NCBI GenBank assembly: GCA_963930145.1
Contig: CAWVLM010000065.1
Location: 1-52,246, forward strand
Direction of reading: 5' to 3'
Length of the DNA: 52,246 bases
Origin: Clostridia bacterium
GTDB lineage: Bacteria > Bacillota > Clostridia > Christensenellales > UBA1242
The translations under genes and the position numbers were made by a program. Of this stretch, positions 3,799 through 43,818 are shown in pieces. How positions within the stretch are numbered: the stretch's first letter is position 1; every line of letters starts with the position of its first letter. The notes under the pieces are model-generated. The model was not told the origin of the DNA and searched no databases. It saw only the letters and a program-made list of their open reading frames with translations.

Positions 3799-4446
3799 TT
3801 ATTTTAAATAATTTCCTATTTTTTTCTTTAATACTGTGATTATTTCACTAAAAATCTCTTCTGGCGACTTGCATGCATCAAGCACATAAAATCTCTCTTT
3901 TTCTATTGATGAAATATAATCATAGCCCTTTGCCACCGCCTTATGAAAGGCTAAACCTTCTTGCTCTATTCTATCAAGCCCTTCACCCATCTTAGACTTT
4001 CTCTTAAAAGCTTCTTTTGGCGAGATTTTAAAATAAAAGGTTAAGTCCGGCTTGACATCTCCAATAATTTTTTTAGTCAAAGAAAGTATATCTCCGCTGC
4101 TCATAATTTTTCTTGCCATTCCTTGGTATGCAATTGTTGAATCATAAAACCTGTCTGCAATAACAACTTTCCCTTGCAATAGGGCAGGCTTTATGCATTT
4201 TTCAACATCTTCAACTCTTGCTGCACAGAAAAGTAAAAGTTCTGTCATAGGAAGCGGCTTATCAATTTCATAGTTTAAAATAAGCTTTCTTATCTCTTCC
4301 GTAAGCGGCGTTCCGCCTGGCTCTCTTACAAAAAGAAAATTATCTTTTTGAGTTAGAGTGGAAATATATTCTTTAAGTTTTTTGATTTGAGTGCTTTTCC
4401 CACACGCTTCTCCACCTTCAAATGATATAAAATATCCGTTGTCCAT
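3799..4446 (-). CDS. tmk: thymidylate kinase
   Basis: P-loop FISFEGGEACGKSTQ, DRF motif (VIADRFYDST), typical 215-aa length. Confidence 0.9.
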   Translation of the reverse strand: MDNGYFISFEGGEACGKSTQIKKLKEYISTLTQKDNFLFVREPGGTPLTEEIRKLILNYEIDKPLPMTELLLFCAARVEDVEKCIKPALLQGKVVIADRFYDSTIAYQGMARKIMSSGDILSLTKKIIGDVKPDLTFYFKISPKEAFKRKSKMGEGLDRIEQEGLAFHKAVAKGYDYISSIEKERFYVLDACKSPEEIFSEIITVLKKKIGNYLK

Positions 4447-4463: not shown

Positions 4464-4553
4464 GGCGATTGAAAGTAAAATTTTAAAAATACTTTAAAAT
4501 TTTAAAAAAGCTTTGCTTTTTTCGCACGCCTTTTGCGTGCACTTTCAATCGCC
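4464..4553. repeat. four-way-junction (cloverleaf-like) palindromic element, copy I
   Basis: Perfect 13-bp closing stem GGCGATTGAAAGT (4464-4476) / ACTTTCAATCGCC (4541-4553). It encloses three hairpins: 4477-4503 (11 bp), 4504-4522 (8 bp) and 4524-4540 (6 bp). Confidence 0.6.
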
Positions 4554-4645
4554 ATTATCTCACGCTCCAATTTTCCCAAAATAAAGGTTTGGTTTCCCGC
4601 TCAAATATCTACTTTTCACGCTGATTTATTAAAAATTAACGTTTA

Positions 4646-5791
4646 TTAGTCCTCGCATCTGCAGTCATGATGTCCACAATGCCCATCACAATGCTCATCT
4701 ACGCAGAAATCAACGATTTCAATGTATTTGTTAAGACTATGTGCCTTATAGATATTTTCTGGCATTTGGTCGGTAGTGGTGTAGCCAGGTTCAGCAACAA
4801 GCACTTCAACAATGCGGTTTATAACAGTCGCACAAGTAAGCTCAGCGGTCGAAGGTCTTTCAATCACAACTCGAGTTGTAGGCTCGCCTTCAATTGTCCA
4901 GTCGTTGCAGTCGTAATCATTTGGACCATAGACCTTGCCAATGCATTCGCTGACTATGGTAGTGCCTTCTTTTGTCTCAGTCGTAACAACGGCACTAAGT
5001 CCCGAGCAATGTCCCTTAGGAATTGTCATGCCAAGAGTGTCAGAATGTAAATCTTCTTCTGCAATTTGTGGCACAGAACGCTGAGTTTGTTTTGTCACAT
5101 GAAGCCCAAGCTTAGCACAAAGCCAGCCGTTAACGTTCCACATATAACTTGGGGCGAACTTTCCCGCACTAATAAGTTTTTTAAGCTCTTCATCAGAAAT
5201 ATTTTCAGGGTCAGCGATTTGCTTTTTAAATTCTTCTTTTGTCAGTCCCGCACCGTGAACTTTAGCAAGGCTCACACCATAGTCTTCAACATTATAGCTT
5301 GACCTTCCTTTAATTTTTATAATCTTGTGTGTGGCTCCACCAATAACACTTATAAGGTTGCCCCAGAAAACGTCTTGGTAGCCGCTTCCGCATATTGTAC
5401 AGCCTGTTTCTTTTGCAAGTTTATCAAGTTTTTTTGCAAGTTTTGGGTTTGAATTTTGTGCGTAGAAGGCCTCTTCGCAGGTAGAAATAGCGTTTACGCC
5501 GTTTTTTGCACAAATTTCATAGATAGGGTAGTTTTCTGCAAAGACACTAGTTGTAGTGATAATTGCGATATCCACATCATGAGTCTTTAAAAATTCATCA
5601 AACTCACTTGCCTTTTGCACTTTAACATTTAATTTTTTGTCACTTTCAATAATTTCGGAAATGTCCTTTCCGATGACGTCAGGGTTGATATCAAAAGCAC
5701 CTACAATTTTAACACCTTTTTCAAGTGCATATTTCATAGTGAATTTGCTCATCTTTCCGCAGCCATATTGAACCATAGTAATTTTTCTCAT
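4646..5791 (-). CDS. NAD(P)-binding DapB-like / amine dehydrogenase (2,4-diaminopentanoate dehydrogenase-like) family oxidoreductase with a Cys/His-rich C-terminal tail
   Basis: Rossmann-type N-terminus MRKITMVQYGCGKMSK...IVGAFDINPDVIGKDI. The likely start is ATG at 5791, preceded by GGAGGT, rather than the ORF-track start at 5818. Confidence 0.5.
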   Translation of the reverse strand: MRKITMVQYGCGKMSKFTMKYALEKGVKIVGAFDINPDVIGKDISEIIESDKKLNVKVQKASEFDEFLKTHDVDIAIITTTSVFAENYPIYEICAKNGVNAISTCEEAFYAQNSNPKLAKKLDKLAKETGCTICGSGYQDVFWGNLISVIGGATHKIIKIKGRSSYNVEDYGVSLAKVHGAGLTKEEFKKQIADPENISDEELKKLISAGKFAPSYMWNVNGWLCAKLGLHVTKQTQRSVPQIAEEDLHSDTLGMTIPKGHCSGLSAVVTTETKEGTTIVSECIGKVYGPNDYDCNDWTIEGEPTTRVVIERPSTAELTCATVINRIVEVLVAEPGYTTTDQMPENIYKAHSLNKYIEIVDFCVDEHCDGHCGHHDCRCED

Positions 5792-5954
5792 ATTTTTACC
5801 TCCGATTTTAGTATACAAATTTTTAAAATTTTTACAAACAAATTTTAAACTATTTTTAAAATAAAAAAGTGACTAAATTGTTAAAAATAGCCACTTGTTA
5901 TAATTTTTTTTGATAAATAACATTGATAAATATGTTTTTATAATTTAAAAATTA

Positions 5955-7793: not shown

Positions 7794-7979
7794 ATAGATA
7801 TTATAAACAAAAACTCCTTATTTTACAAGCAAAAGAGTTGCGAGCGATGGGTTTAATAAAAAATAAACTGTAAAGATAATTTAATATACAAATTTTTGTG
7901 TTAACTTTTATTTAAACCAAAAATTTTTCCAATCATGTAAAAAAAATTAAAAAATTTTTAAAAAATTTGTTAAAAATGC

Positions 7980-8010
7980 TTGACATGGGTTGCGGGGGGG
8001 GCGGTATACT
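7980..8010 (+). promoter_or_regulatory. sigma-A type promoter with a G8 tract in the spacer (P1)
   Basis: TTGACA 7980-7985 and TATACT 8005-8010. The 19-bp spacer contains GGGGGGGG at 7994-8001. An A/T-rich UP-like region lies upstream. The cassette is duplicated at 13676-13728. Confidence 0.6.
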
Positions 8011-8061
8011 AGTAGCGTAAAGATAGCCGCCATAGGCGGCTATCGCGAGCAGCTTATGCCG

Positions 8062-8153
8062 CGAGAGCGAATGTACAAACTCCAACGGAGTTTGTAAAAG
8101 GCTGACGCCTTTGGTAAATTTTTGCAGGGCAAAAATTTACACATTCGCTCTCG
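8062..8153 (+). repeat. four-way-junction (cloverleaf-like) palindromic element, copy II, in the 5' UTR of the 8219 gene
   Basis: Perfect 13-bp closing stem 8062-8074/8141-8153. Arms at 8075-8095 (9 bp), 8097-8112 (6 bp) and 8115-8139 (10 bp), with linkers of 0-2 nt. Confidence 0.6.
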
Positions 8154-8218
8154 GGCATAGGCCCGCTCGCCGAGTTAAAAAATTTTGGGGTTACCCCAGT
8201 AATAAAAGGAGAAAAATT

Positions 8219-9217
8219 ATGAGTTTTAAAATTAAGTTAATTTCAACAGTATCAGCATTTATTTTAGTATTTAGCATGCTTTTAGTAGGCGTGTTGGCTA
8301 CAACATCAGGGTTTACTATAAAATTAAAAGGCGATATTCAATTCAATATAGCAAATTCAACACTATATATAAAAGATATAAGAATATCAAATGGTTTAAC
8401 AGAAGGCGAAACAATAGATAATTTTTTGCCAAGCTTTGTTAATGAAAATTTTGAACTTGATTTAGGCACAGTTTTATCTGATAGTGGAACAGTATCCATT
8501 GAAATTGATGTTATTAACACAACGGAGACAGTATATAGTGCGAGTAGTAAGTCAAGTATAGCAGGTGCAGTTTTATCTGTCAGCGGGACTATTGCAGGTG
8601 ATAATGTGCCTCAAGAGAATGTTTTATCATACACAGGAATTTCTGGGACAGTGCACATTAGTATAAGTGCTGCTAGTTCTACAACGATAAACTTAAATGA
8701 GATAGTTGTAGATATGGCAGAAACAACAGAGCCCATTGGCTACACATTGACACTTAATAACAATGATAGTGACATAGAAGTATGGTATAAAACAGATATA
8801 AATAGTTTAAATTATAGCATACTTGACTCAAATAGCAGTGTCGAGATAAATACAAACAATTCAGATAGCTTTTACCTATATCTCACACTTAACGATGACC
8901 CTTATCCTTTTAAAGATAAAACAGAGTCTAGTTCTGAGGCTGCTTCAATAGAACCGCGTAAGTATGTTCTTAATTACCCTGTAAGTGTAAACGATGTTTT
9001 AATAGGTACATTATTATATGTGCAATCTAGTGTATTGCCGAGTACACAATATGAAGCAAACGAAGGAAGTGCAGAAGTTGGAAAGCCTGGAATTAATGTG
9101 GCGATGGAAGTTTCAGTTTCGGCAGCAGAAAATGATGTGGTGGAGACATCGGTGGACGAGTCGGGAACTATTTTAATTTGCAAAATAACAAAATCTTTAG
9201 TTATAGATATTAGATAA
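8219..9217 (+). CDS. secreted or surface protein of unknown function, paralog group with 13809..14378
   Basis: ATG at 8219 follows AAAAGGAGAAAAATT. N-terminal signal peptide MSFKIKLISTVSAFILVFSMLLVGVLA. The part of the ORF-track entry upstream of 8219 (TTG at 8111) overlaps the structured leader and is probably not translated. Confidence 0.75.
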   Translation: MSFKIKLISTVSAFILVFSMLLVGVLATTSGFTIKLKGDIQFNIANSTLYIKDIRISNGLTEGETIDNFLPSFVNENFELDLGTVLSDSGTVSIEIDVINTTETVYSASSKSSIAGAVLSVSGTIAGDNVPQENVLSYTGISGTVHISISAASSTTINLNEIVVDMAETTEPIGYTLTLNNNDSDIEVWYKTDINSLNYSILDSNSSVEINTNNSDSFYLYLTLNDDPYPFKDKTESSSEAASIEPRKYVLNYPVSVNDVLIGTLLYVQSSVLPSTQYEANEGSAEVGKPGINVAMEVSVSAAENDVVETSVDESGTILICKITKSLVIDIR

Positions 9218-9260: not shown

Positions 9261-9311
9261 AAAAAGCACTATTTTAAATGGGTTGCACCCCAAAATAAAA
9301 TAGTGCTTTTT
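9261..9311. terminator. bidirectional terminator (14-bp stem)
   Basis: AAAAGCACTATTTT pairs with AAAATAGTGCTTTT, flanked by A- and T-runs. It lies between convergent genes. Confidence 0.7.
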
Positions 9312-11214: not shown

Positions 11215-13290
11215 TTAAATTTTTTCTTCAATAATGTTAATATCTTTAAGTAGCATGCTCCTATCTTTTTCACACACAAAGAAAAGTTTATGAAGAGCTC
11301 TTGTTGCTGAAACATAGATGATATTTTTGTCTATAGTATTTTTATAGTTTTCACTATCAGCGTTTGGAATGATTACGGCATCAAATTCAATGCCCTTAGC
11401 TGTTGCACAGGATGAGATAAGTATTCTGTTATTATAGTCTTCTGGTTCGTTTAAAAGAGTGCATTTTGTAAATTTGGAAAGCTGTTTTTGCAGGGCAGAA
11501 GCTTCTTTATTGCATTTACAGATGATCGCAATATGGTCAAAACTTTGACATTCTGTTTCGATAATTTTCAAAATTGTGGCAATTTGGTTGTTAGTTTGAT
11601 ATAACGCTGGCTCTTTGCCACTTCTATTTACAAACTCAATATCATTAAGCCCTATAAGATTATTTGCAAACTTGGCAATTTCTTTTGTTGAGCGGTAGGT
11701 TTTCTTAAGTTCAAGCAACTTGCAGCCCAAGAAATCGGCAGTTATTTGCAGATACTCAGGTGATGGATTTTTTTCAATGCATTGATGCACATCTCCCACC
11801 ACAATGCAAGGGCAAGACCATAGCTTTCTAAAAAGATAGATATCAACTGGGGTGAAGTCTTGCATTTCATCTATAATAAGGTATTTTGCAGAGAAGTCGT
11901 GGTCAAAACCATATAAAAAGTATTTAATTGCAAGGTATGTGCCTTTATCAATATAGTCTATAGTTGGTTTATTGCTTACCTTGAAGCCTTCTCTTGCCAT
12001 AAAAATCTCAAATATCTTATTGACGTCACGTATTGGCAAAAATTTATAAAGTATGCGTTTAAATCTATCACGTAAGGCTTTATTTTGTTCTCTAGTGTAG
12101 TGGCGTTCTTCGGTGAAGACCATAGCGTATTGCCAAGCAATCTTGTTTATACGCTCATATAGGTCAAGCCCTTTGAATGTTTTGAAGAAAAGCTCCTTAG
12201 TCTTTTCAGCAGGGAAGTCGACAGTCTCAACAGTGTTGTCTAGGTTTTCTTTGACCACATAAGAGAGATTTTGCGGCGTAAAAGTTTCAAGGAAAGGTCC
12301 CTTCAAAAATCTAAGCAAGCTATCAAGATATTCATAAGAAGATTTATATGATATTTCATCAAGAACGCTTTGTTTAGGACTTGTTGCTATGTCGTCAAGC
12401 ATGCTCTCTCTTGACTGAATAGGGCGTTTAAGTTCAGCTCTAGCAATCTGTGCAAAGGTGGTTTCAACAAGGTTGTCTTCGCCAAGTTGCGGCAAAACTT
12501 CAGAGATATAACTTGAAAACACGTTGTTAGGGGATATAATCAAAATATCTTTACTTTTTATCTGTCCGCGATGCTTATATAGAAGATATGCAGCTCTGTG
12601 AAGAGCTATTGATGTCTTGCCCGAACCAGCCACGCCTTGAATAAGCATGCTGTCGGCAATATCTTTTCTCATAATTTCATTTTGTTCTTTTTGAATTGAA
12701 GAAACAATCTGTTTCATCTTCACGGAAACATTTTTAGAAAGAATCTCTTGCAAGATTTCATCATTGATTGTCATGTCAGTGTCAAAGTACGATAAAAGCT
12801 GACCATCTTCTATTTTGTATTGTCTTTTAAGCTGAAGCGTTCCGCTATACTCTTCTTTGCCAATTTTGAAACTAGCAGGTCCAAGATTATAGTCATAATA
12901 CATTGAAGAGATAGGTGCTCGCCAGTCTGCAACATACAGTTTGTTGTCATCCACGATATTGCCAATGCCAATATATACCTTTTGTACTGTCTTGCGATTC
13001 TTAGGAAGAAAGTCTATACGAGCAAAATATGGATGGTCTTTTTGTAGGTATAAACGCTTTGTCTCTTTAACAATCTCGCCTTCCACAGATTCAATATCTG
13101 CAAGATTTGAATATGTCTCAGATAAGTCCAGCCCGTCTTCTTTTGCTATTTCATGGAAATTTTCAGAAAGGTCTGATACGCCAAGTTTTAACTTGTTTTT
13201 TATGCTTTTAACTCTTTCTTGGCTCTCGTTTATTTTTTTATCAATAATTTTTAATGTTTTTTCAAGATATTCTTTTTCTTTTATATCCAA
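11215..13290 (-). CDS. helD: UvrD/HelD-like superfamily 1 helicase (RNA polymerase recycling ATPase HelD-like)
   Basis: Walker A GVAGSGKTSIALHRAAYLLY, DEMQD motif (IIDEMQDFT), C-terminal VSATRALHKL. The ORF track starts at GTG 13308; TTG at 13290, preceded by AAGGGGG, is the more likely start. Confidence 0.75.
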   Translation of the reverse strand: MDIKEKEYLEKTLKIIDKKINESQERVKSIKNKLKLGVSDLSENFHEIAKEDGLDLSETYSNLADIESVEGEIVKETKRLYLQKDHPYFARIDFLPKNRKTVQKVYIGIGNIVDDNKLYVADWRAPISSMYYDYNLGPASFKIGKEEYSGTLQLKRQYKIEDGQLLSYFDTDMTINDEILQEILSKNVSVKMKQIVSSIQKEQNEIMRKDIADSMLIQGVAGSGKTSIALHRAAYLLYKHRGQIKSKDILIISPNNVFSSYISEVLPQLGEDNLVETTFAQIARAELKRPIQSRESMLDDIATSPKQSVLDEISYKSSYEYLDSLLRFLKGPFLETFTPQNLSYVVKENLDNTVETVDFPAEKTKELFFKTFKGLDLYERINKIAWQYAMVFTEERHYTREQNKALRDRFKRILYKFLPIRDVNKIFEIFMAREGFKVSNKPTIDYIDKGTYLAIKYFLYGFDHDFSAKYLIIDEMQDFTPVDIYLFRKLWSCPCIVVGDVHQCIEKNPSPEYLQITADFLGCKLLELKKTYRSTKEIAKFANNLIGLNDIEFVNRSGKEPALYQTNNQIATILKIIETECQSFDHIAIICKCNKEASALQKQLSKFTKCTLLNEPEDYNNRILISSCATAKGIEFDAVIIPNADSENYKNTIDKNIIYVSATRALHKLFFVCEKDRSMLLKDINIIEEKI

Positions 13291-13382
13291 TTTTTCCCCC
13301 TTTGTCACACAACATTTATGCGGCTTGTCTATCTAAGTTTGTTTTTTATAGATAAACCAATATAGCGTGCTAGCATGAGCGC

Positions 13383-13475
13383 GGGCTGTGAAGCTAAGAA
13401 GCCTTGCGGCTTCTTACAAAACAACAAGTTGTTTTGCCAATTTTTAAAATACTTTAAAAATCAGCTTCACAGCCC
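13383..13475. repeat. four-way-junction (cloverleaf-like) palindromic element, copy III
   Basis: Perfect 13-bp closing stem GGGCTGTGAAGCT (13383-13395) / AGCTTCACAGCCC (13463-13475). Arms at 13396-13415 (8 bp), 13417-13436 (8-9 bp) and 13440-13461 (9 bp). Confidence 0.6.
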
Positions 13476-13700
13476 ATTTGCTTAGAAAACTAACCCTAAA
13501 TCGCATCAAAAACTTTTTTTGCTTGCAAAATGTTGTTTTGATTTAAAATTATATCATATTCACTGACAAAAGTCAAGAAAGAAGCCGCCCTAGAGAGAAT
13601 ATAATAAGCCGCTTAGGAAAGAGTCATCTCAAATACAACATATAAGATAATAATATGAAAAATAAAAAATAAAAAAATTTAAAAAAATTGTTAAAAATGC

Positions 13701-13728
13701 TTGACAAACGTTGCGGGGGGGGTATAAT
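13701..13728 (+). promoter_or_regulatory. sigma-A type promoter with a G8 tract in the spacer (P2)
   Basis: TTGACA 13701-13706 and TATAAT 13723-13728. The 16-bp spacer ends in GGGGGGGG (13715-13722). The upstream 25 nt are near-identical to P1. Confidence 0.65.
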
Positions 13729-13808
13729 AGGGTAACTTAAAAATATAATATCATTTTTATTGCCCGAAAATGATATGAATATATTTTAAGTTTAAAAGGA
13801 GAAAAAAT

Positions 13809-14378
13809 ATGAGTTTAAAATTAAAATTAGCAACAAGTATCAGTGCCTTTTTTCTAGTTCTTGCAATGCTTGTCACAGGCGTGTTTGCTGCAAGAAACTT
13901 AGAATTTAACTTTGGCGGCACAGTAAACTTTGAAGCTCTCAGCGGCGAAATCGACGCACTTGTTACTGGTGAAGTAACAGGCACAGCCACACCAATAACA
14001 CTTGAAGATATATCAATAGAGCAAGGGACAGAAACTGTAACTGTTCCACTTTCATGGCAAAACATGGACTTAACTTATGCAAAAGATGGAAAACAAATAG
14101 TTTTAACAATATCTGTGCAAAATAGACGTTCTGATAGAGATTTAGAAGCTATTATATCTATGGAAGGCCTTGCAGCTAGCGAAGAACAGGCTGGAGAAGA
14201 CAATGTATATGGGTTTTTTGGCAATGTACCACCATCTAGTAGTGAAACTTTATCTATTAAACCAAATCAATCAGGTGAAGTTGACTTTAGAATAAACATA
14301 GTAGATAAATTCGCACCTGTTGATAATGTCAACGTAACATTCACAATTTCGCTGCAAGACAGAGAGCCAACAGCATAA
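13809..14378 (+). CDS. secreted or surface protein of unknown function, paralog of 8219..9217
   Basis: Same RBS context (AAAAGGAGAAAAAAT ATG). Signal peptide MSLKLKLATSISAFFLVLAMLVTGVFA aligns with that of the 8219 gene. Confidence 0.75.
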   Translation: MSLKLKLATSISAFFLVLAMLVTGVFAARNLEFNFGGTVNFEALSGEIDALVTGEVTGTATPITLEDISIEQGTETVTVPLSWQNMDLTYAKDGKQIVLTISVQNRRSDRDLEAIISMEGLAASEEQAGEDNVYGFFGNVPPSSSETLSIKPNQSGEVDFRINIVDKFAPVDNVNVTFTISLQDREPTA

Positions 14379-20224: not shown

Positions 20225-20836
20225 ATGGAAGAAAATAATTCAAAACCAAGTCAAGAGCTAATAAAAAATCAAAACAATAATGATGATTTAACTGAAAACT
20301 TAACCACTGAATGCACAACATCTACAGAGAGTGCAGATAGCGAAGTTCAGTCAGTCGATATACCAGCCGATATAATAGAAGAGAAGGGTGAAAACAAGCT
20401 CTCAAAGAAACAACAATTTATTCAATTTTTAAAGTTTCTTGCTTTTTCGTTGTCAGCGGGCGTTATTCAGTTGTTGTCATTTGAGCTTTTATATACTTGG
20501 ACAGCTTGCCTTGCATGGTGGCCATCATATCTTATAAGTATAATTTTGTCAGTGCTTTGGAATTTCACCTTCAATCGAAAATTTACATTCAAATCGGCAA
20601 GCAATGTCCCGCTGGCTATGACGCTAGTGCTAATATTTTATTGTGCCTTCGTGCCACTTTCAGTCTTTGGTGGCGATGCACTTGAAGGAGCGGGTTGGAA
20701 TGGCACTCTTGTCACATTTTTGATGATGGTGATAAATTTTATAACAGAATTTTTTTGGGATAAATACATTGTATTTAATGATAAGGTTATAAGCAAAATA
20801 TTAAGAAAAAATAAAAATTCAAAAATAACAAAATGA
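20225..20836 (+). CDS. GtrA-family membrane protein with an acidic N-terminal extension
   Basis: Four predicted TM segments and the WNFTFNRKFTFKS motif typical of GtrA-like proteins. Confidence 0.6.
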   Translation: MEENNSKPSQELIKNQNNNDDLTENLTTECTTSTESADSEVQSVDIPADIIEEKGENKLSKKQQFIQFLKFLAFSLSAGVIQLLSFELLYTWTACLAWWPSYLISIILSVLWNFTFNRKFTFKSASNVPLAMTLVLIFYCAFVPLSVFGGDALEGAGWNGTLVTFLMMVINFITEFFWDKYIVFNDKVISKILRKNKNSKITK

Positions 20837-20867
20837 AAAATAAGAGTAAAACGAAAAGTTTTCGCTC

Positions 20868-21428
20868 TTATTTTTTCTTATCAATAAAAGCAATATTGTT
20901 ATTTTTGAATTTCACAAGATAGTTTTGATTGATATTGATTTCGCCTTTAAAAAAGATTTTGCCTTGTTTTTGTTTTTTACTTTCAACTTCTAAATATTCA
21001 ATCTCATAGAAATTATATCCCAATATGTTCAAAAGGGGATTGATATAGAAAAGAGCGTTGTTGATATAAACTATTCCAATTAAAACAAGAATTATAATAA
21101 AAAGCACAAAGTCACAAACATAAGTCACGTCAAGCTGCAGGGCGAAAAGCACAAATAGAGAAAAATAGCCAAGAAAATGCCTGTCTGTAATATTCTCTTT
21201 TTTTAATATGATAATTTCTTTCGTCATGTCCTTGCAATGATAGATATTTATGATAAGCCCGACTATGCCAAGCACAATAAGCGTTAAGAGCAAAATAATA
21301 TTTAACGTGTTAAGCACATTGAAAGAGTGGTTATCATTTATTATATCAATGATAAGCCGAATTAAGATTAAAAAATACATCGGAACAAAGGCACTTAAAT
21401 ATAAAAATATATCTTTTATAGCATTCAT
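20868..21428 (-). CDS. integral membrane protein, unknown function
   Basis: 186-aa ORF with about four hydrophobic segments and a basic C-terminal soluble part. I recognise no motif. Confidence 0.55.
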   Translation of the reverse strand: MNAIKDIFLYLSAFVPMYFLILIRLIIDIINDNHSFNVLNTLNIILLLTLIVLGIVGLIINIYHCKDMTKEIIILKKENITDRHFLGYFSLFVLFALQLDVTYVCDFVLFIIILVLIGIVYINNALFYINPLLNILGYNFYEIEYLEVESKKQKQGKIFFKGEININQNYLVKFKNNNIAFIDKKK

Positions 21429-22382: not shown

Positions 22383-22459
22383 CGCGGGATGGAGCAGCTC
22401 GGAAGCTCGTCGGGCTCATAACCCGAAGGTCGTTGGTTCAAATCCAACTCCCGCAACCA
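22383..22459 (+). tRNA. initiator tRNA-fMet (anticodon CAT)
   Basis: 77 nt, very close to E. coli tRNA-fMet as I recall it. It has the C1xA72 mismatch, three G-C pairs in the anticodon stem (TCGGGCTCATAACCCGA) and an encoded CCA. Confidence 0.9.
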
Positions 22460-22466
22460 TAAAAAA

Positions 22467-22496
22467 AGTTGGGCATTTTTGCCCAACTTTTTTATT
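22467..22496 (+). terminator. intrinsic terminator after tRNA-fMet
   Basis: AGTTGGGCA pairs with TGCCCAACT, followed by TTTTTT. Confidence 0.7.
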
Positions 22497-22515
22497 GCGG
22501 GAATCAACTTTAGTT

Positions 22516-22596
22516 ATGACCTTCGGGCTATATCGAAACAAAGTGAAGATATAACCTTCGTATTCGGTTGTTAGTTAATAAAAACTCCCGCAACCA
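22516..22596 (+). repeat. tRNA-fMet-derived degenerate unit 1
   Basis: ATGACCTTCGGGCTATATCGAAACAAAGTGAAGATATAACCTTCGTATTCGG...ACTCCCGCAACCA. A complement to the 3' acceptor strand (TTGCGGGA) lies at 22495-22502. Terminator-like hairpin at 22606-22630. Confidence 0.7.
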
Positions 22597-29660: not shown

Positions 29661-30074
29661 TTATTTAATATTTATTGAATAATTTAAAATTTCGTTTAAC
29701 CTAGTTTTATCATCTTTTAAATAAAGATAGCCCACCAAAACTTCAAAAGCGGTAGCATAAGAATAGTCAGACTGGCTTGCGTTTTTTGCCGAGTGCTTAG
29801 GCTTTGCATTACGACCGCGTCTTATGATTTCATTTTCTTCTTCGCTTAGACTAGGCAAAAGCTCTTTCAAAACTCTTGCTTGCGATTGAGCTTTACAAAA
29901 TTTGGCAGCTTCAGTGTGATAGTTTTCCATTTTTCCATCATATAATTTTAAACAAAATTCTCGCACAAAAAGGGTATGCACACTGTCACCGATAAAAGCA
30001 AGCGGCAAAAGGTTTGTTTTAAGCAGCTTTTCAAGAAGTTCTTTATTATTGTTAGTGTGATTTATAACATCCAT
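29661..30074 (-). CDS. mrnC: mini-ribonuclease III
   Basis: LAFIGDSVHTLFVREF signature; ~137 aa. ATG at 30074 has better RBS spacing (AAAGGA) than 30080. Confidence 0.8.
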   Translation of the reverse strand: MDVINHTNNNKELLEKLLKTNLLPLAFIGDSVHTLFVREFCLKLYDGKMENYHTEAAKFCKAQSQARVLKELLPSLSEEENEIIRRGRNAKPKHSAKNASQSDYSYATAFEVLVGYLYLKDDKTRLNEILNYSINIK

Positions 30075-30284
30075 AAACATCCTTTAAAAATATGATTATA
30101 ACAATAAATAAGGCACTTGTGAATGGGCGGATTATCCGCTCTCCTTTATATACCTTAGTTTGTTCCAAGAGAGCGGAGACAAAACTTATCTTTTTATTCA
30201 CTCTATCGGACAGTCGTCAAACATTTGGTTCGCGAATAGTGATGCAAACTAAGTTTGCTCATCGAACATTTGACTTATAAAATT

Positions 30285-43574: not shown

Positions 43575-43818
43575 TGAATTATATTGGGGTAACACCAAAA
43601 TTTTTTAGACTAAAAGTTGCAGGGTTTAAGCCTGCAACTTTTAGTCTAACTCCTTACAGAGAACGCGGACACAAGCCTAACGCTTGGTGACTGTCAGACT
43701 AAGTATAATCTAAATTATAAGAGTTTTATTTCCGCTCTCTAACTAAAATTTCGGTTTTCCGACTTGGGCTCCCGCAAAATCTCCGATTTTGTGGGTAAAA
43801 GTAAGGACCCATAAGGGT
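43575..43818 (+). repeat. modular structured intergenic repeat, copy B
   Basis: Reverse-complement homolog of 30285-30523. It includes an 18-bp perfect hairpin (43605-43622/43630-43647). It is bounded by direct copies of AAGGACCC..AAGGG(G)T at 43557-43575 and 43802-43818. Confidence 0.7.

What the first reader, a model, noticed from the sequence alone, without database searches (positions are those of the whole stretch)
8023..8172. Perfect four-way-junction (cloverleaf-like) element in the 5' UTR of the phase-variable gene
A GC-rich, densely nested palindromic block lies between the P1 -10 element and the RBS.
- Closing stem: 8062-8074/8141-8153, 13 bp with no mismatch.
- Arm 1: 8075-8095 (ACAAACTCC-AAC-GGAGTTTGT).
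- Arm 2: 8097-8112 (AAAGGC-TGAC-GCCTTT).
- Arm 3: 8115-8139 (TAAATTTTTG-CAGGG-CAAAAATTTA).
- Linkers are only 0-2 nt.
- A further pairing, 8045-8050/8165-8170, wraps this block. Extra hairpins lie at 8023-8043 and 8153-8164.
The same architecture, a 13-bp perfect closing stem around three hairpins in ~90-93 nt, recurs at 4464-4553 and 13383-13475 with different stem sequences. Conserved shape without conserved sequence suggests a selected RNA or cruciform-DNA structure, not a simple sequence repeat. I cannot match it to tRNA, attC, REP/BIME or any riboswitch that I know.
Basis: seen in the sequence. Interest (0 to 1): 0.75.

Follow-up and report, generated by a model that had tools for sequence, protein, structure and literature searches.

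The report
Perfect four-way-junction intergenic repeat family
The reported element is real: it is one of about 45 copies found here of a roughly 90-base, perfectly base-paired four-armed DNA/RNA structure scattered between the genes of a group of uncultured gut Clostridia, it matches no described family, and here it forms a conserved part of the leader of a phase-variable gene.

Summary
Windows 8062-8153, 4464-4553 and 13383-13475 each fold, as RNA or DNA and on either strand, into a closing stem around exactly three perfect hairpins (z -7.6 to -13).

- **Not chance, not an artefact.** The same architecture occurs 24-26 times in 1.34 Mb of related Clostridia loci and 0 times in shuffles. Two-arm, four-arm and five-arm versions occur 2, 0 and 1 times.
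- **One family.** A covariance model built only from 8062-8153 and its paralogues finds the other two window copies and more than 20 others (E 1e-15 to 1e-4). Nothing else in the window scores.
- **Watson-Crick pairing.** G-U makes up 1.2% of pairs, against 4.9% in ordinary terminators of the same genomes. Stem changes are compensated, and interiors flip in place.
- **Conserved leader part.** Paralogues of the downstream gene at other loci carry the same cassette: poly-G promoter, 5' hairpin, four-way junction, ribosome-binding site.
- **Other contexts.** Other copies lie between co-directional genes, often followed by a T-tract.
- **No known family.** There is no match in Rfam, to tRNA, or in phage or plasmid collections.

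Best reading: a clade-specific dispersed family of structured repeats, kept perfect by template switching. It probably acts on transcripts as a leader, stability or attenuator element. A DNA-level role is not excluded.

The parts
8062..8153 (.). E1 core: perfect four-way junction. It has a 13-bp closing stem and three hairpin arms (9 bp with loop AAC; 6 bp with loop TGAC; 12 bp with loop AGG).
   Evidence: The model scores it at 94.6 bits. An orthologue with one compensated pair lies at L001:9645-9736 and in L090.
8045..8061 (+). 5' half of the outer, interrupted extension of the E1 closing stem. 8045-8050 pairs with 8165-8170, and 8052-8060 pairs with 8154-8162 with one G-U.
   Evidence: Minimum-energy fold. 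The paralogous leaders also have long composite closing stems.
8154..8170 (+). 3' half of the outer extension of the E1 closing stem.
8022..8044 (+). 10-bp perfect hairpin (GATAGCCGCC-ATA-GGCGGCTATC) at the predicted 5' end of the transcript.
   Evidence: The leaders in L091 and L096 have 5'-proximal hairpins at the equivalent place.
7980..8010 (+). Promoter TTGACA, 19-nt spacer with a G8 tract (7994-8001), TATACT. It is the putative phase-variable promoter that drives transcription through E1.
   Evidence: Sequence. Paralogues have the same promoter type, and G-tract length differs between L091 (G9) and L092 (G7).
8219..9217 (+). Downstream gene of 332 aa with an N-terminal hydrophobic segment and no Pfam family. 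It belongs to a small family of about 50 proteins.
4464..4553 (.). E2: second family member. It lies 92 nt after the stop of gene 4646-5818(-) and 17 nt before the start of tmk, 3799-4446(-). TTTTC follows it in the sense direction.
   Evidence: Model score 39 bits, E 1e-8. Orthologues in L001, L002, L007 and L090.
13383..13475 (.). E3: third family member, in the leader of the UvrD-like helicase gene 11215-13308(-). It starts about 66 nt after the predicted transcription start.
   Evidence: Model score 37 bits, E 3e-8. Orthologues in L002, L003, L004, L007, L010, L024, L053, L056, L081, L082 and L089.
13548..13576 (-). Promoter-like site TTGACT-17-TATAAT with TG, upstream of E3.

Best explanation
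E1 belongs to a clade-specific, dispersed family of 75-135-nt intergenic elements.

**Architecture.** It is fixed: a closing stem of 9-13 bp (longer and interrupted in leaders), exactly three perfect hairpin arms, loops of 3-5 nt, and almost no unpaired junction bases. This makes a fully stacked four-way junction.

**Shown here.**
- The copies are homologous.
- They sit only in intergenic, transcribed positions.
- Their pairing is maintained almost entirely as Watson-Crick pairs.

**Inferred.**
- Perfect pairing, whole-arm replacement and in-place inversion of the interior result from replication template switching between inverted-repeat arms.
- The working form is the transcript.
- In the phase-variable cassette, the 5' hairpin and the junction form a very stable leader. 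It protects or insulates the mRNA made when the poly-G promoter is ON, without blocking it, because no U-tract follows.
- Between co-directional genes, a copy with a G+C-rich stem base and a following U-tract acts as an intercistronic stability element or partial terminator (attenuator). This resembles the role of REP elements in enterobacteria.
For: **Architecture is specific.** I counted 24 three-arm elements against 2 two-arm, 0 four-arm and 1 five-arm, with 0-1 in shuffles.

**Homology.**
- E1 aligns end to end with L001:3905-4036 and L001:4211-4309.
- Model R1, built from those sequences, finds E2, E3 and other copies at E 1e-15 to 1e-4, with a wide gap to noise.
- One element (closing stem GCTATGTGATG) lies at three different intergenic positions in L008, L032 and L021.

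**Conserved leader part.** Four paralogous cassettes at unrelated loci keep the order poly-G promoter, hairpin, junction, ribosome-binding site. Their closing-stem sequences are completely different but fully paired.

**Transcript-level polarity.** In 22 co-directional contexts, the 8 nt after the element in the sense direction hold 5.0 T on average. The antisense-equivalent flank holds 2.5 A (Wilcoxon p = 8e-4). The T-tract stays on the sense 3' side even where the interior is inverted (L003, L004).

**Positional equivalence with terminators.** Relatives that lack the element have ordinary hairpin terminators at the same three gene ends: gyrA, the gene before tmk, and the F420 ligase gene.

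**Template switching.**
- Stem differences between close relatives are almost all two-sided.
- Interiors are inverted between identical flanks.
- The literature shows that template switching homogenises inverted-repeat arms, inverts spacers and creates perfect stems (PMC5941160, PMC8794818, PMC8604942).
Against: - **No expression data.** I had no RNA-seq, end-mapping or probing data, so transcription and RNA folding are inferred.
- **Near-absence of G-U.** 13 of 1072 pairs are G-U, against 146 of 2959 in ordinary terminators of the same loci, and the two strands fold equally well. A DNA-level constraint predicts this. RNA selection does not, unless both strands must fold.
- **The three-arm rule is unexplained.** A stability or terminator role does not require exactly three arms. 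Common descent or recognition of the junction itself would.
- **Termination cannot be efficient.** In L020 and L024 the element fills the whole spacer between gyrA and the helicase gene. E2 ends 17 nt before the tmk start. Termination there can only be partial.
- **T-tract is not universal.** E1, window E3, L029, L066, L080 and L091:13078 lack one.
- **The test overstates independence.** The 22 contexts include orthologues.
Confidence: 0.45

Rival explanations
1. The working form is DNA. The element folds in single-stranded DNA, or is extruded from supercoiled duplex, as a hairpin-capped mimic of a Holliday junction. A junction-specific protein (recombinase, resolvase or architectural protein) binds or processes it. 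It serves as a recombination or mobility site for the small phase-variable cassettes, or as a supercoil sink next to spacer-sensitive promoters.
For: - Pairing is almost purely Watson-Crick, and the fold is the same on both strands with DNA parameters.
- G-U is four times rarer than in ordinary terminators.
- Loops of 3-5 nt and one A+T-rich arm in most copies favour extrusion.
- Exactly four helices meet with no unpaired bases.
- Interiors invert in place.
- Several copies lie between divergent promoters, and L001:3905-4036 and L001:4211-4309 appear to lie outside any leader.
- The cassettes that carry E1-type elements occupy different chromosomal sites in different genomes.
Against: - No recombinase, transposase or HUH gene lies in the window or next to the copies.
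- The T-tract follows transcription direction, not element orientation.
- All copies lie in transcribed intergenic positions.
- Template switching alone can explain Watson-Crick perfection.
- Extruding a closing stem around a 65-nt interior is kinetically demanding (general knowledge of cruciform extrusion).
Confidence: 0.22
2. The elements are selfish, MITE-like or REP-like mobile DNA with no host function. The closing stem is the terminal inverted repeat. The constant shape reflects common descent plus homogenisation of palindromes. The intergenic location reflects where insertions are tolerated.
For: - Paralogous copies lie at different loci.
- Density is ten-fold higher in the closest relatives: 6.4 per 100 kb, against 0.6-1.1 in the rest.
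- Gain and loss occur between genomes whose UvrC proteins are 95% identical: L001 lacks E3 but has two other copies nearby.
- Closing stems share a junction-proximal GAA(A)GT or GAAAAC motif.
Against: - No target-site duplication is visible.
- No near-identical copies occur within one genome. Paralogues score about as low as distant orthologues.
- No partner transposase is known.
- E3 and the leader elements stay perfectly paired across species whose proteins are only 51-90% identical, which argues for maintenance.
- A metagenome scan for the E3 closing stem found it only at the gyrA-helicase site.
Confidence: 0.2
3. E1 is a dedicated cis-regulatory RNA, such as a riboswitch or a protein-binding leader, specific to the phase-variable gene.
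For: It is kept in the same place and orientation in four paralogous cassettes.
Against: - There are no conserved unpaired nucleotides. Loops and junction vary freely and only the stems are kept.
- The same architecture serves unrelated housekeeping contexts.
- More distant paralogues (L094, L098) have poly-G promoters but no junction.
- One leader copy (L096:240-335) is in the opposite orientation.
- Rfam gives no match.
Confidence: 0.08
4. The element is an assembly, vector or chimeric artefact.
For: None was found.
Against: - The same elements occur at the same positions in independent assemblies from different projects.
- No phage or plasmid record matches.
Confidence: 0.01

Closest known systems
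REP/BIME elements of enterobacteria and REPINs of Pseudomonas
   Same: They are short palindromic intergenic repeats. They lie mostly between co-directional or convergent genes, fold in mRNA, and are credited with stabilising upstream mRNA and attenuating transcription. They are clade-specific and abundant.
   Different: REPs are single hairpins of 20-40 nt with near-identical sequence, GTAG or CGTC heads and imperfect stems, and they are linked to a RAYT transposase. The elements here are about 90 nt. They form four-way junctions with perfect stems, show low sequence identity between copies, and have no known partner gene.
BOX elements of Streptococcus pneumoniae and structured MITEs (Correia/NEMIS, ERIC, Bacillus cereus bcr1)
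   Same: The terminal segments pair into a closing stem around internal hairpin modules. The repeats are dispersed and intergenic, and their RNA structure is kept by compensatory changes (general knowledge; review PMC3184786 listed).
   Different: BOX has a variable number of boxB modules and conserved sequence. MITEs have target-site duplications and near-identical copies. Here the arm number is fixed at three, the copies are diverged, and no duplication is seen.
Rho-independent (intrinsic) terminators
   Same: Many copies have a G+C-rich stem base followed by a T-tract in the sense direction. They occupy the places where relatives have ordinary terminators.
   Different: A terminator is a single hairpin. 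In the same loci, terminators have 4.9% G-U pairs and only 46% are perfect. E1 and several other copies have no U-tract, and some fill operon spacers where full termination would be lethal.
Integron attC sites
   Same: Structure is conserved and sequence is variable. The lengths are similar, and both are associated with small single-gene cassettes.
   Different: attC is an imperfect hairpin with extrahelical bases and R/L boxes (GTTRRRY core). It lies 3' of cassettes in arrays next to intI. Here the stems are perfect, there is no core site and no integrase, and the element lies 5' of the gene.
T-shaped inverted terminal repeats of parvoviruses (flip/flop)
   Same: A closing stem encloses small perfect palindromes, and two orientations of the interior occur.
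   Different: Those repeats form three-way junctions at the ends of linear single-stranded DNA genomes and prime replication. The elements here are internal and chromosomal and have three arms.

Membership tests
tRNA / tmRNA / tRNA-like | Cloverleaf with 7/4/5/5-bp stems, conserved D and T loops and an anticodon loop | tested here: not met
   ARAGORN finds only tRNA-Met at 22383-22459. Rfam finds tRNA only there. The elements have stems of 6-13 bp and loops of 3-5 nt.
Any Rfam 15 family | Score at or above the family's gathering threshold | tested here: not met
   No match in the whole window apart from the tRNA. The permissive scan of 7900-8300 gave only sub-threshold hits of 7-20 bits with E of 0.67 or more.
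Intrinsic terminator | G+C-rich stem followed within 2 nt by a U-tract | tested here: inconclusive
   Not met for E1 (flank GGCATAGG) or for window E3. E2 is followed by TTTTC. The feature is met in most orthologues of E3 and E2.
Intrinsic terminator | Single unbranched hairpin just downstream of a stop codon | tested here: not met
   The structure is branched with three arms. E1 lies downstream of a promoter, not of a gene end.
REP/BIME/REPIN | Many near-identical 20-40-nt imperfect palindromes with a GTAG or CGTC head | tested here: not met
   Copies are about 90 nt. All-against-all scores between families are close to background, except for a few paralogue pairs. No GTAG or CGTC head is visible.
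REP/BIME/REPIN | Associated RAYT (TnpA-REP) gene | not testable with these tools
   No transposase lies in the window or in the fetched loci. Whole genomes were not available.
MITE | Terminal inverted repeats | tested here: met
   The closing stem is a perfect inverted repeat of 9-13 bp at the element ends.
MITE | Target-site duplication | tested here: inconclusive
   No direct repeats flank the 29 elements listed. No alignable pair of an empty and a filled site was found.
MITE | Multiple near-identical copies and a matching autonomous element | tested here: not met
   Only diverged paralogues were found. No autonomous element was seen. The sampled sequence is a small part of each genome.
Integron attC | R''/L''-L'/R' boxes with a GTTRRRY core, extrahelical bases and an imperfect stem, 3' of cassettes near intI | tested here: not met
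   The stems are perfect with no bulges. The element lies 5' of its gene. The neighbouring proteins include no integrase.
Retron non-coding RNA (msr-msd) | Closing a1/a2 repeats around hairpins, next to a reverse transcriptase gene | tested here: not met
   The neighbours are uvrC, hisS, tmk, a helicase and gyrA. There is no reverse transcriptase. Three copies lie within 9 kb.

The most novel reading that the evidence does not exclude
The element is a DNA-level device: a genomically encoded, hairpin-capped four-way junction that mimics a Holliday junction. Host or mobile-element junction-specific proteins would recognise it. It would mediate movement or inversion of small phase-variable expression cassettes, or set the local supercoiling that spacer-sensitive poly-G promoters read. 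Its near-absolute Watson-Crick pairing would then reflect selection on DNA folding.
Probability: 0.18. Interest if true: 0.9.

Novelty: new variant of a known kind. Interest (0 to 1): 0.66.

Why it matters
If the family is confirmed, it adds a new structural class to bacterial intergenic repeats.

- **A rule on shape, not sequence.** The elements obey a strict rule: exactly four helices, no unpaired junction bases, and essentially only Watson-Crick pairs. Their sequences drift freely.
- **A natural test case.** They offer a way to ask how perfect stems are created and kept, by template switching or by selection, and whether bacteria use four-way junctions in RNA or DNA as signals.
- **A possible regulatory part.** The link with poly-G phase-variable promoters in uncultured gut Clostridia suggests a reusable leader module for surface-protein switching.
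- **A practical use.** The covariance model gives a marker for annotating intergenic regions in these genomes, which are known only as metagenome-assembled genomes (MAGs).

Tried and rejected
- **RNALfold scans.** The scan of all loci timed out. On intergenic regions alone it did not report the known elements as closed components. I replaced it with seed-and-fold and hairpin-chain scans.
- **MAFFT alignments.** Alignments of diverged copies mis-register the arms. I used junction-anchored parsing and the covariance model instead.
- **Metagenome scan.** It therefore gave no evidence that E3 is mobile.
- **Exact-protein look-up.** The window's UvrC sequence is not on record.
- **Origin by inverted duplication.** A single inverted duplication of one hairpin would make arms 1 and 3 alike. 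They are not, so I rejected this origin.
- **Insertion into a terminator loop.** I considered a mobile three-hairpin module landing in a host terminator loop. I rejected it because closing stems travel with their arms (L008, L032, L021) and share a motif.
- **Promoter inside E2.** I looked by eye for a promoter reading towards tmk and found none that was convincing. No promoter scan settled this.
- **Literature.** Searches found no description of such elements.

Full report
**1. The observation**

The sequence at 8023-8172 is as described. RNAfold of 8015-8180 gives these parts:
- a 10-bp hairpin at 8022-8044;
- an interrupted outer stem (8045-8050/8165-8170 and 8052-8060/8154-8162, the latter with one G-U);
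- a 13-bp perfect closing stem (8062-8074/8141-8153);
- three perfect arms of 9, 6 and 12 bp, joined by linkers of 0-2 nt.

The energy is -96.6 kcal/mol with z = -11.2.

The two claimed recurrences, 4464-4553 and 13383-13475, fold the same way with z = -7.6 each. With DNA parameters all three give the same four-way junction on both strands, z -8.8 to -12.9. A sliding fold of the whole window ranks them among the most stable 100-nt windows. I call them E1, E2 and E3.

**2. The setting**

The window is a housekeeping region of a genome with about 35% G+C. It holds an F420-ligase-like gene, tmk, uvrC, hisS, a UvrD-like helicase, gyrA, gyrB, metG, secA, nusG and rplK/rplA. It holds no transposase or recombinase.

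A search with UvrC returned 80 syntenic loci, all from uncultured gut Clostridia MAGs. Some are labelled Christensenella or Christensenellaceae.

All three elements are intergenic:
- **E1** follows a TTGACA-19-TATACT promoter whose spacer holds a G8 tract. It precedes the ribosome-binding site of gene 8219-9217.
- **E2** lies 92 nt after one gene's stop and 17 nt before the tmk start.
- **E3** lies in the leader of the helicase gene, downstream of a TTGACT-17-TATAAT site.

**3. More than chance, and a specific shape**

- A seed-and-fold scan of the window plus 80 loci (1.34 Mb) gave 38 raw hits, against 2 in dinucleotide-preserving shuffles.
- An independent scan that chains perfect hairpins and then looks for a closing stem gave 26 hits, against 0 in shuffles.
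- With identical criteria, closing stems enclose three arms 24 times, two arms twice (one expected by chance), four arms never, and five arms once.
- Across copies the closing stem is 9-13 bp (up to 32), the arms 5-13 bp, the loops mostly 3-5 nt and the linkers mostly 0-1 nt.

The class is therefore defined by a fully paired four-way junction, not by a general excess of palindromes.

**4. One family**

The copies are related in sequence as well as in shape.
- E1 aligns over its whole length with two other elements in genome L001 (3905-4036 and 4211-4309). The closing stem and all three arms are recognisably similar, and 11 pairs are compensated.
- Their alignment scores equal those of distant E3 orthologues and lie above the 90th percentile of all pairs.
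- A covariance model built only from these four sequences found E2, E3 and their orthologues at E 1e-7 to 7e-5 in 1.36 Mb. Noise scored at most 16.5 bits.
- With filters off, the window holds exactly three hits.
- With filters off on other loci, the model recovered elements with unrelated-looking closing stems in L008, L009, L020, L029, L079 and L080 at E 5e-8 to 1.5e-4.
- One element (closing stem GCTATGTGATG, arms GTATGC, AAATTC and TAAAATTTTAT) occurs at three different intergenic positions in three genomes. The stems are the same, the loops differ, and the arm order is inverted.
- Closing stems tend to end in GAA(A)GT or GAAAAC at the junction. The middle arm usually starts with an A-run, and one outer arm is A+T-rich.
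- Density is 6.4 per 100 kb in loci whose UvrC is at least 83% identical, and 0.6-1.1 per 100 kb in more distant ones. New regions from close relatives hold 2-4 copies per 21 kb.

**5. How the elements evolve**

- **G-U pairs are rare.** They are 13 of 1072 pairs on the better strand and 2 of 1054 on the other. In junction-anchored family alignments they are 4 of 776. Ordinary hairpin-plus-T-tract terminators in the same loci have 146 of 2959 (4.9%), and only 46% of those are perfect.
- **Stem changes are two-sided.** Differences between close relatives are nearly always compensated. Sometimes the whole distal part of an arm is replaced while neighbouring arms stay identical, as in L020 against L023.
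- **Interiors invert in place.** The E3 interior is inverted in L003 and L004 relative to eight other species, between the same flanks.
- **Turnover can be fast.** L001, whose UvrC is 95% identical, lacks E3 but has two other copies a few hundred bases away.

These patterns match what replication template switching between inverted-repeat arms is reported to produce: homogenised arms, inverted spacers and new perfect stems (PMC5941160, PMC8794818, PMC8604942). That this process operates here is an inference.

**6. The phase-variable leader**

The protein encoded downstream of E1 has no Pfam family and about 50 relatives. Paralogues lie at unrelated chromosomal sites.
- **P0010** (51% identity; loci L091 and L092), **P0014** (L096) and a gene at the start of L096 carry the same cassette. 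It consists of a TTGAC(A/G) promoter with a G7-G9 tract, a 5' hairpin, a four-way junction with a long composite closing stem, and then the ribosome-binding site.
- **P0013** (L093) has a near-identical junction about 300 nt upstream of its start. Its promoter lay outside the stretch I read.
- **Arms and stems.** The first arm (A[C/G]AAACTC) is recognisably the same as in E1, while the closing stems are completely different but fully paired. The model scores these copies at 49-63 bits.
- **Phase variation.** The G-tract differs between two assemblies of one locus (G9 in L091, G7 in L092), which supports phase variation.
- **Exceptions.** More distant paralogues (L094, L098) keep the poly-G promoter and hairpin-rich leaders but have no junction. 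One leader copy is in the opposite orientation.

E1 is thus a conserved, structurally maintained part of this leader. The cassettes probably duplicated as units, so shared orientation alone proves little.

**7. Other contexts and polarity**

- **Location.** Most copies lie between co-directional genes, 6-100 nt after a stop codon and 17-40 nt before the next start. A few lie between convergent or divergent genes.
- **Polar T-tract.** In 22 co-directional cases, the 8 nt after the element in the sense direction hold 5.0 T on average. The opposite flank holds 2.5 A (p = 8e-4; orthologues are not independent). The T-tract keeps its side when the interior is inverted.
- **Terminators in the same places.** At three gene ends, relatives without the element have an ordinary terminator instead: gyrA in L041, L042, L043 and L048; the gene before tmk in L030, L031, L043 and L048; and the F420-ligase end, where the window has a simple hairpin at 509-544 and L008 and L009 have junctions.
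- **Limits on termination.** In L020 and L024 the element fills the whole gyrA-helicase spacer, and E2 abuts the tmk ribosome-binding site. Termination can therefore be only partial.

**8. Mechanism**

I commit to a transcript-level role as the most likely (0.45).
- In the leader, the 5' hairpin and the junction make a very stable, compact structure with no U-tract. It should protect or insulate the mRNA made in the ON phase.
- Between genes, copies with a G+C-rich stem base and a U-tract should act as stability elements and attenuators, as REP elements do.
- DNA-level template switching would keep the stems perfect.

Shown: the structure, its homology, its maintenance, its location and the polarity of the T-tract. 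Inferred: transcription, RNA folding in vivo, the effect on expression, and the mutational mechanism.

The main rival (0.22) is a DNA-level function. It is favoured by the near-absence of G-U, the strand symmetry and the strict four-helix rule. Purely selfish repeats (0.20) and a dedicated regulatory RNA (0.08) follow. An artefact is excluded by recurrence in independent assemblies and the absence of phage or plasmid matches.

**9. Comparison with known families and novelty**

No known family fits.
- Rfam and ARAGORN give nothing.
- The defining features of attC sites, REP/BIME, retron RNAs and simple terminators were tested and not met.
- MITE features are only partly met: the inverted termini are present, while a target duplication and near-identical copies are not.
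- Functionally the closest analogues are REP/BIME and pneumococcal BOX elements.
- Four literature searches found no description of such elements.

I rate this a new variant of a known kind (structured intergenic repeats), with a distinct and strictly kept architecture. It is of real interest because the shape rule is unexplained.

Noticed in passing
window 13701-14378 (+): A second cassette of the same type. A TTGACA-16-TATAAT promoter with a G8 tract in the spacer drives a 189-aa ORF (13809-14378) with no Pfam family. Its N-terminus (MSLKLKL...) resembles that of gene 8219-9217. It is present in L001 and L008 and absent from most relatives.
   Followed up: partly
L091:9750-9790 vs L092:1-30: Two assemblies of the same paralogous locus differ in the promoter G-tract (G9 against G7). 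The leader shown is otherwise identical. This is direct support for phase variation by tract length.
   Followed up: partly
window 22383-22527: tRNA-Met (22383-22459) is followed by a 14-bp terminator hairpin and then by inverted copies of parts of its own 3' end (TTGCGGGA and GACCTTCGGG). These give a 106-nt closed fold at 22422-22527. L014 and L060 show similar tRNA-linked folds. It may be a remnant of an integration site.
   Followed up: no
window 13531-13541 (-) and E3 middle arm; gyrA 3' ends of L002-L056: The motif ATCAAAAC(AAC) lies just after the helicase promoter, inside the gyrA 3' coding end in most relatives. It is the same sequence as the 5' half of the most conserved E3 arm in every species. 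It could be the donor of a template-switch copy or an alternative pairing partner.
   Followed up: partly
L093:9850-9900, L096:430-470, L098:9810-9850: Leaders of several paralogous cassettes share a second motif downstream of the junction: a TGACGCC...GCCGTCAC hairpin. The window's E1 leader lacks it.
   Followed up: no
window 20802-20912: Three inverted-repeat pairs overlap so that they cannot all form at once: 20802-20814/20868-20880, 20815-20834/20893-20912 and 20836-20851/20860-20875. They lie between convergent genes 20225-20836(+) and 20868-21428(-). They could form alternative structures.
   Followed up: no
window 4555-4610 (- strand), L001 and L002 equivalents: Just upstream of E2, in the sense direction, lies an imperfect direct repeat: GAGCGGGAAA, about 25 nt, then GGAGCGTGAGATA. 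It is kept in the window, L001 and L002.
   Followed up: no
window 43605-43649: A 22-bp, 95% complementary hairpin about 200 nt downstream of secA is among the most stable local folds in the window. It is a single hairpin and not a family member (model score 9.9 bits).
   Followed up: partly
window 9261-9311: A 16-bp perfect closing stem around a small GGGT-TGCA-CCCC hairpin lies between the convergent ends of gene 8219-9217 and hisS. It is a nested bidirectional terminator. A similar GGGGTTACCCC palindrome lies at 8188-8198 between E1 and the ribosome-binding site.
   Followed up: no
window 29661-30080 (-): A 139-aa protein consists of a Ribonuclease III domain only (Mini-III type). It is relevant only as a possible enzyme acting on double-stranded RNA in this organism.
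   Followed up: no
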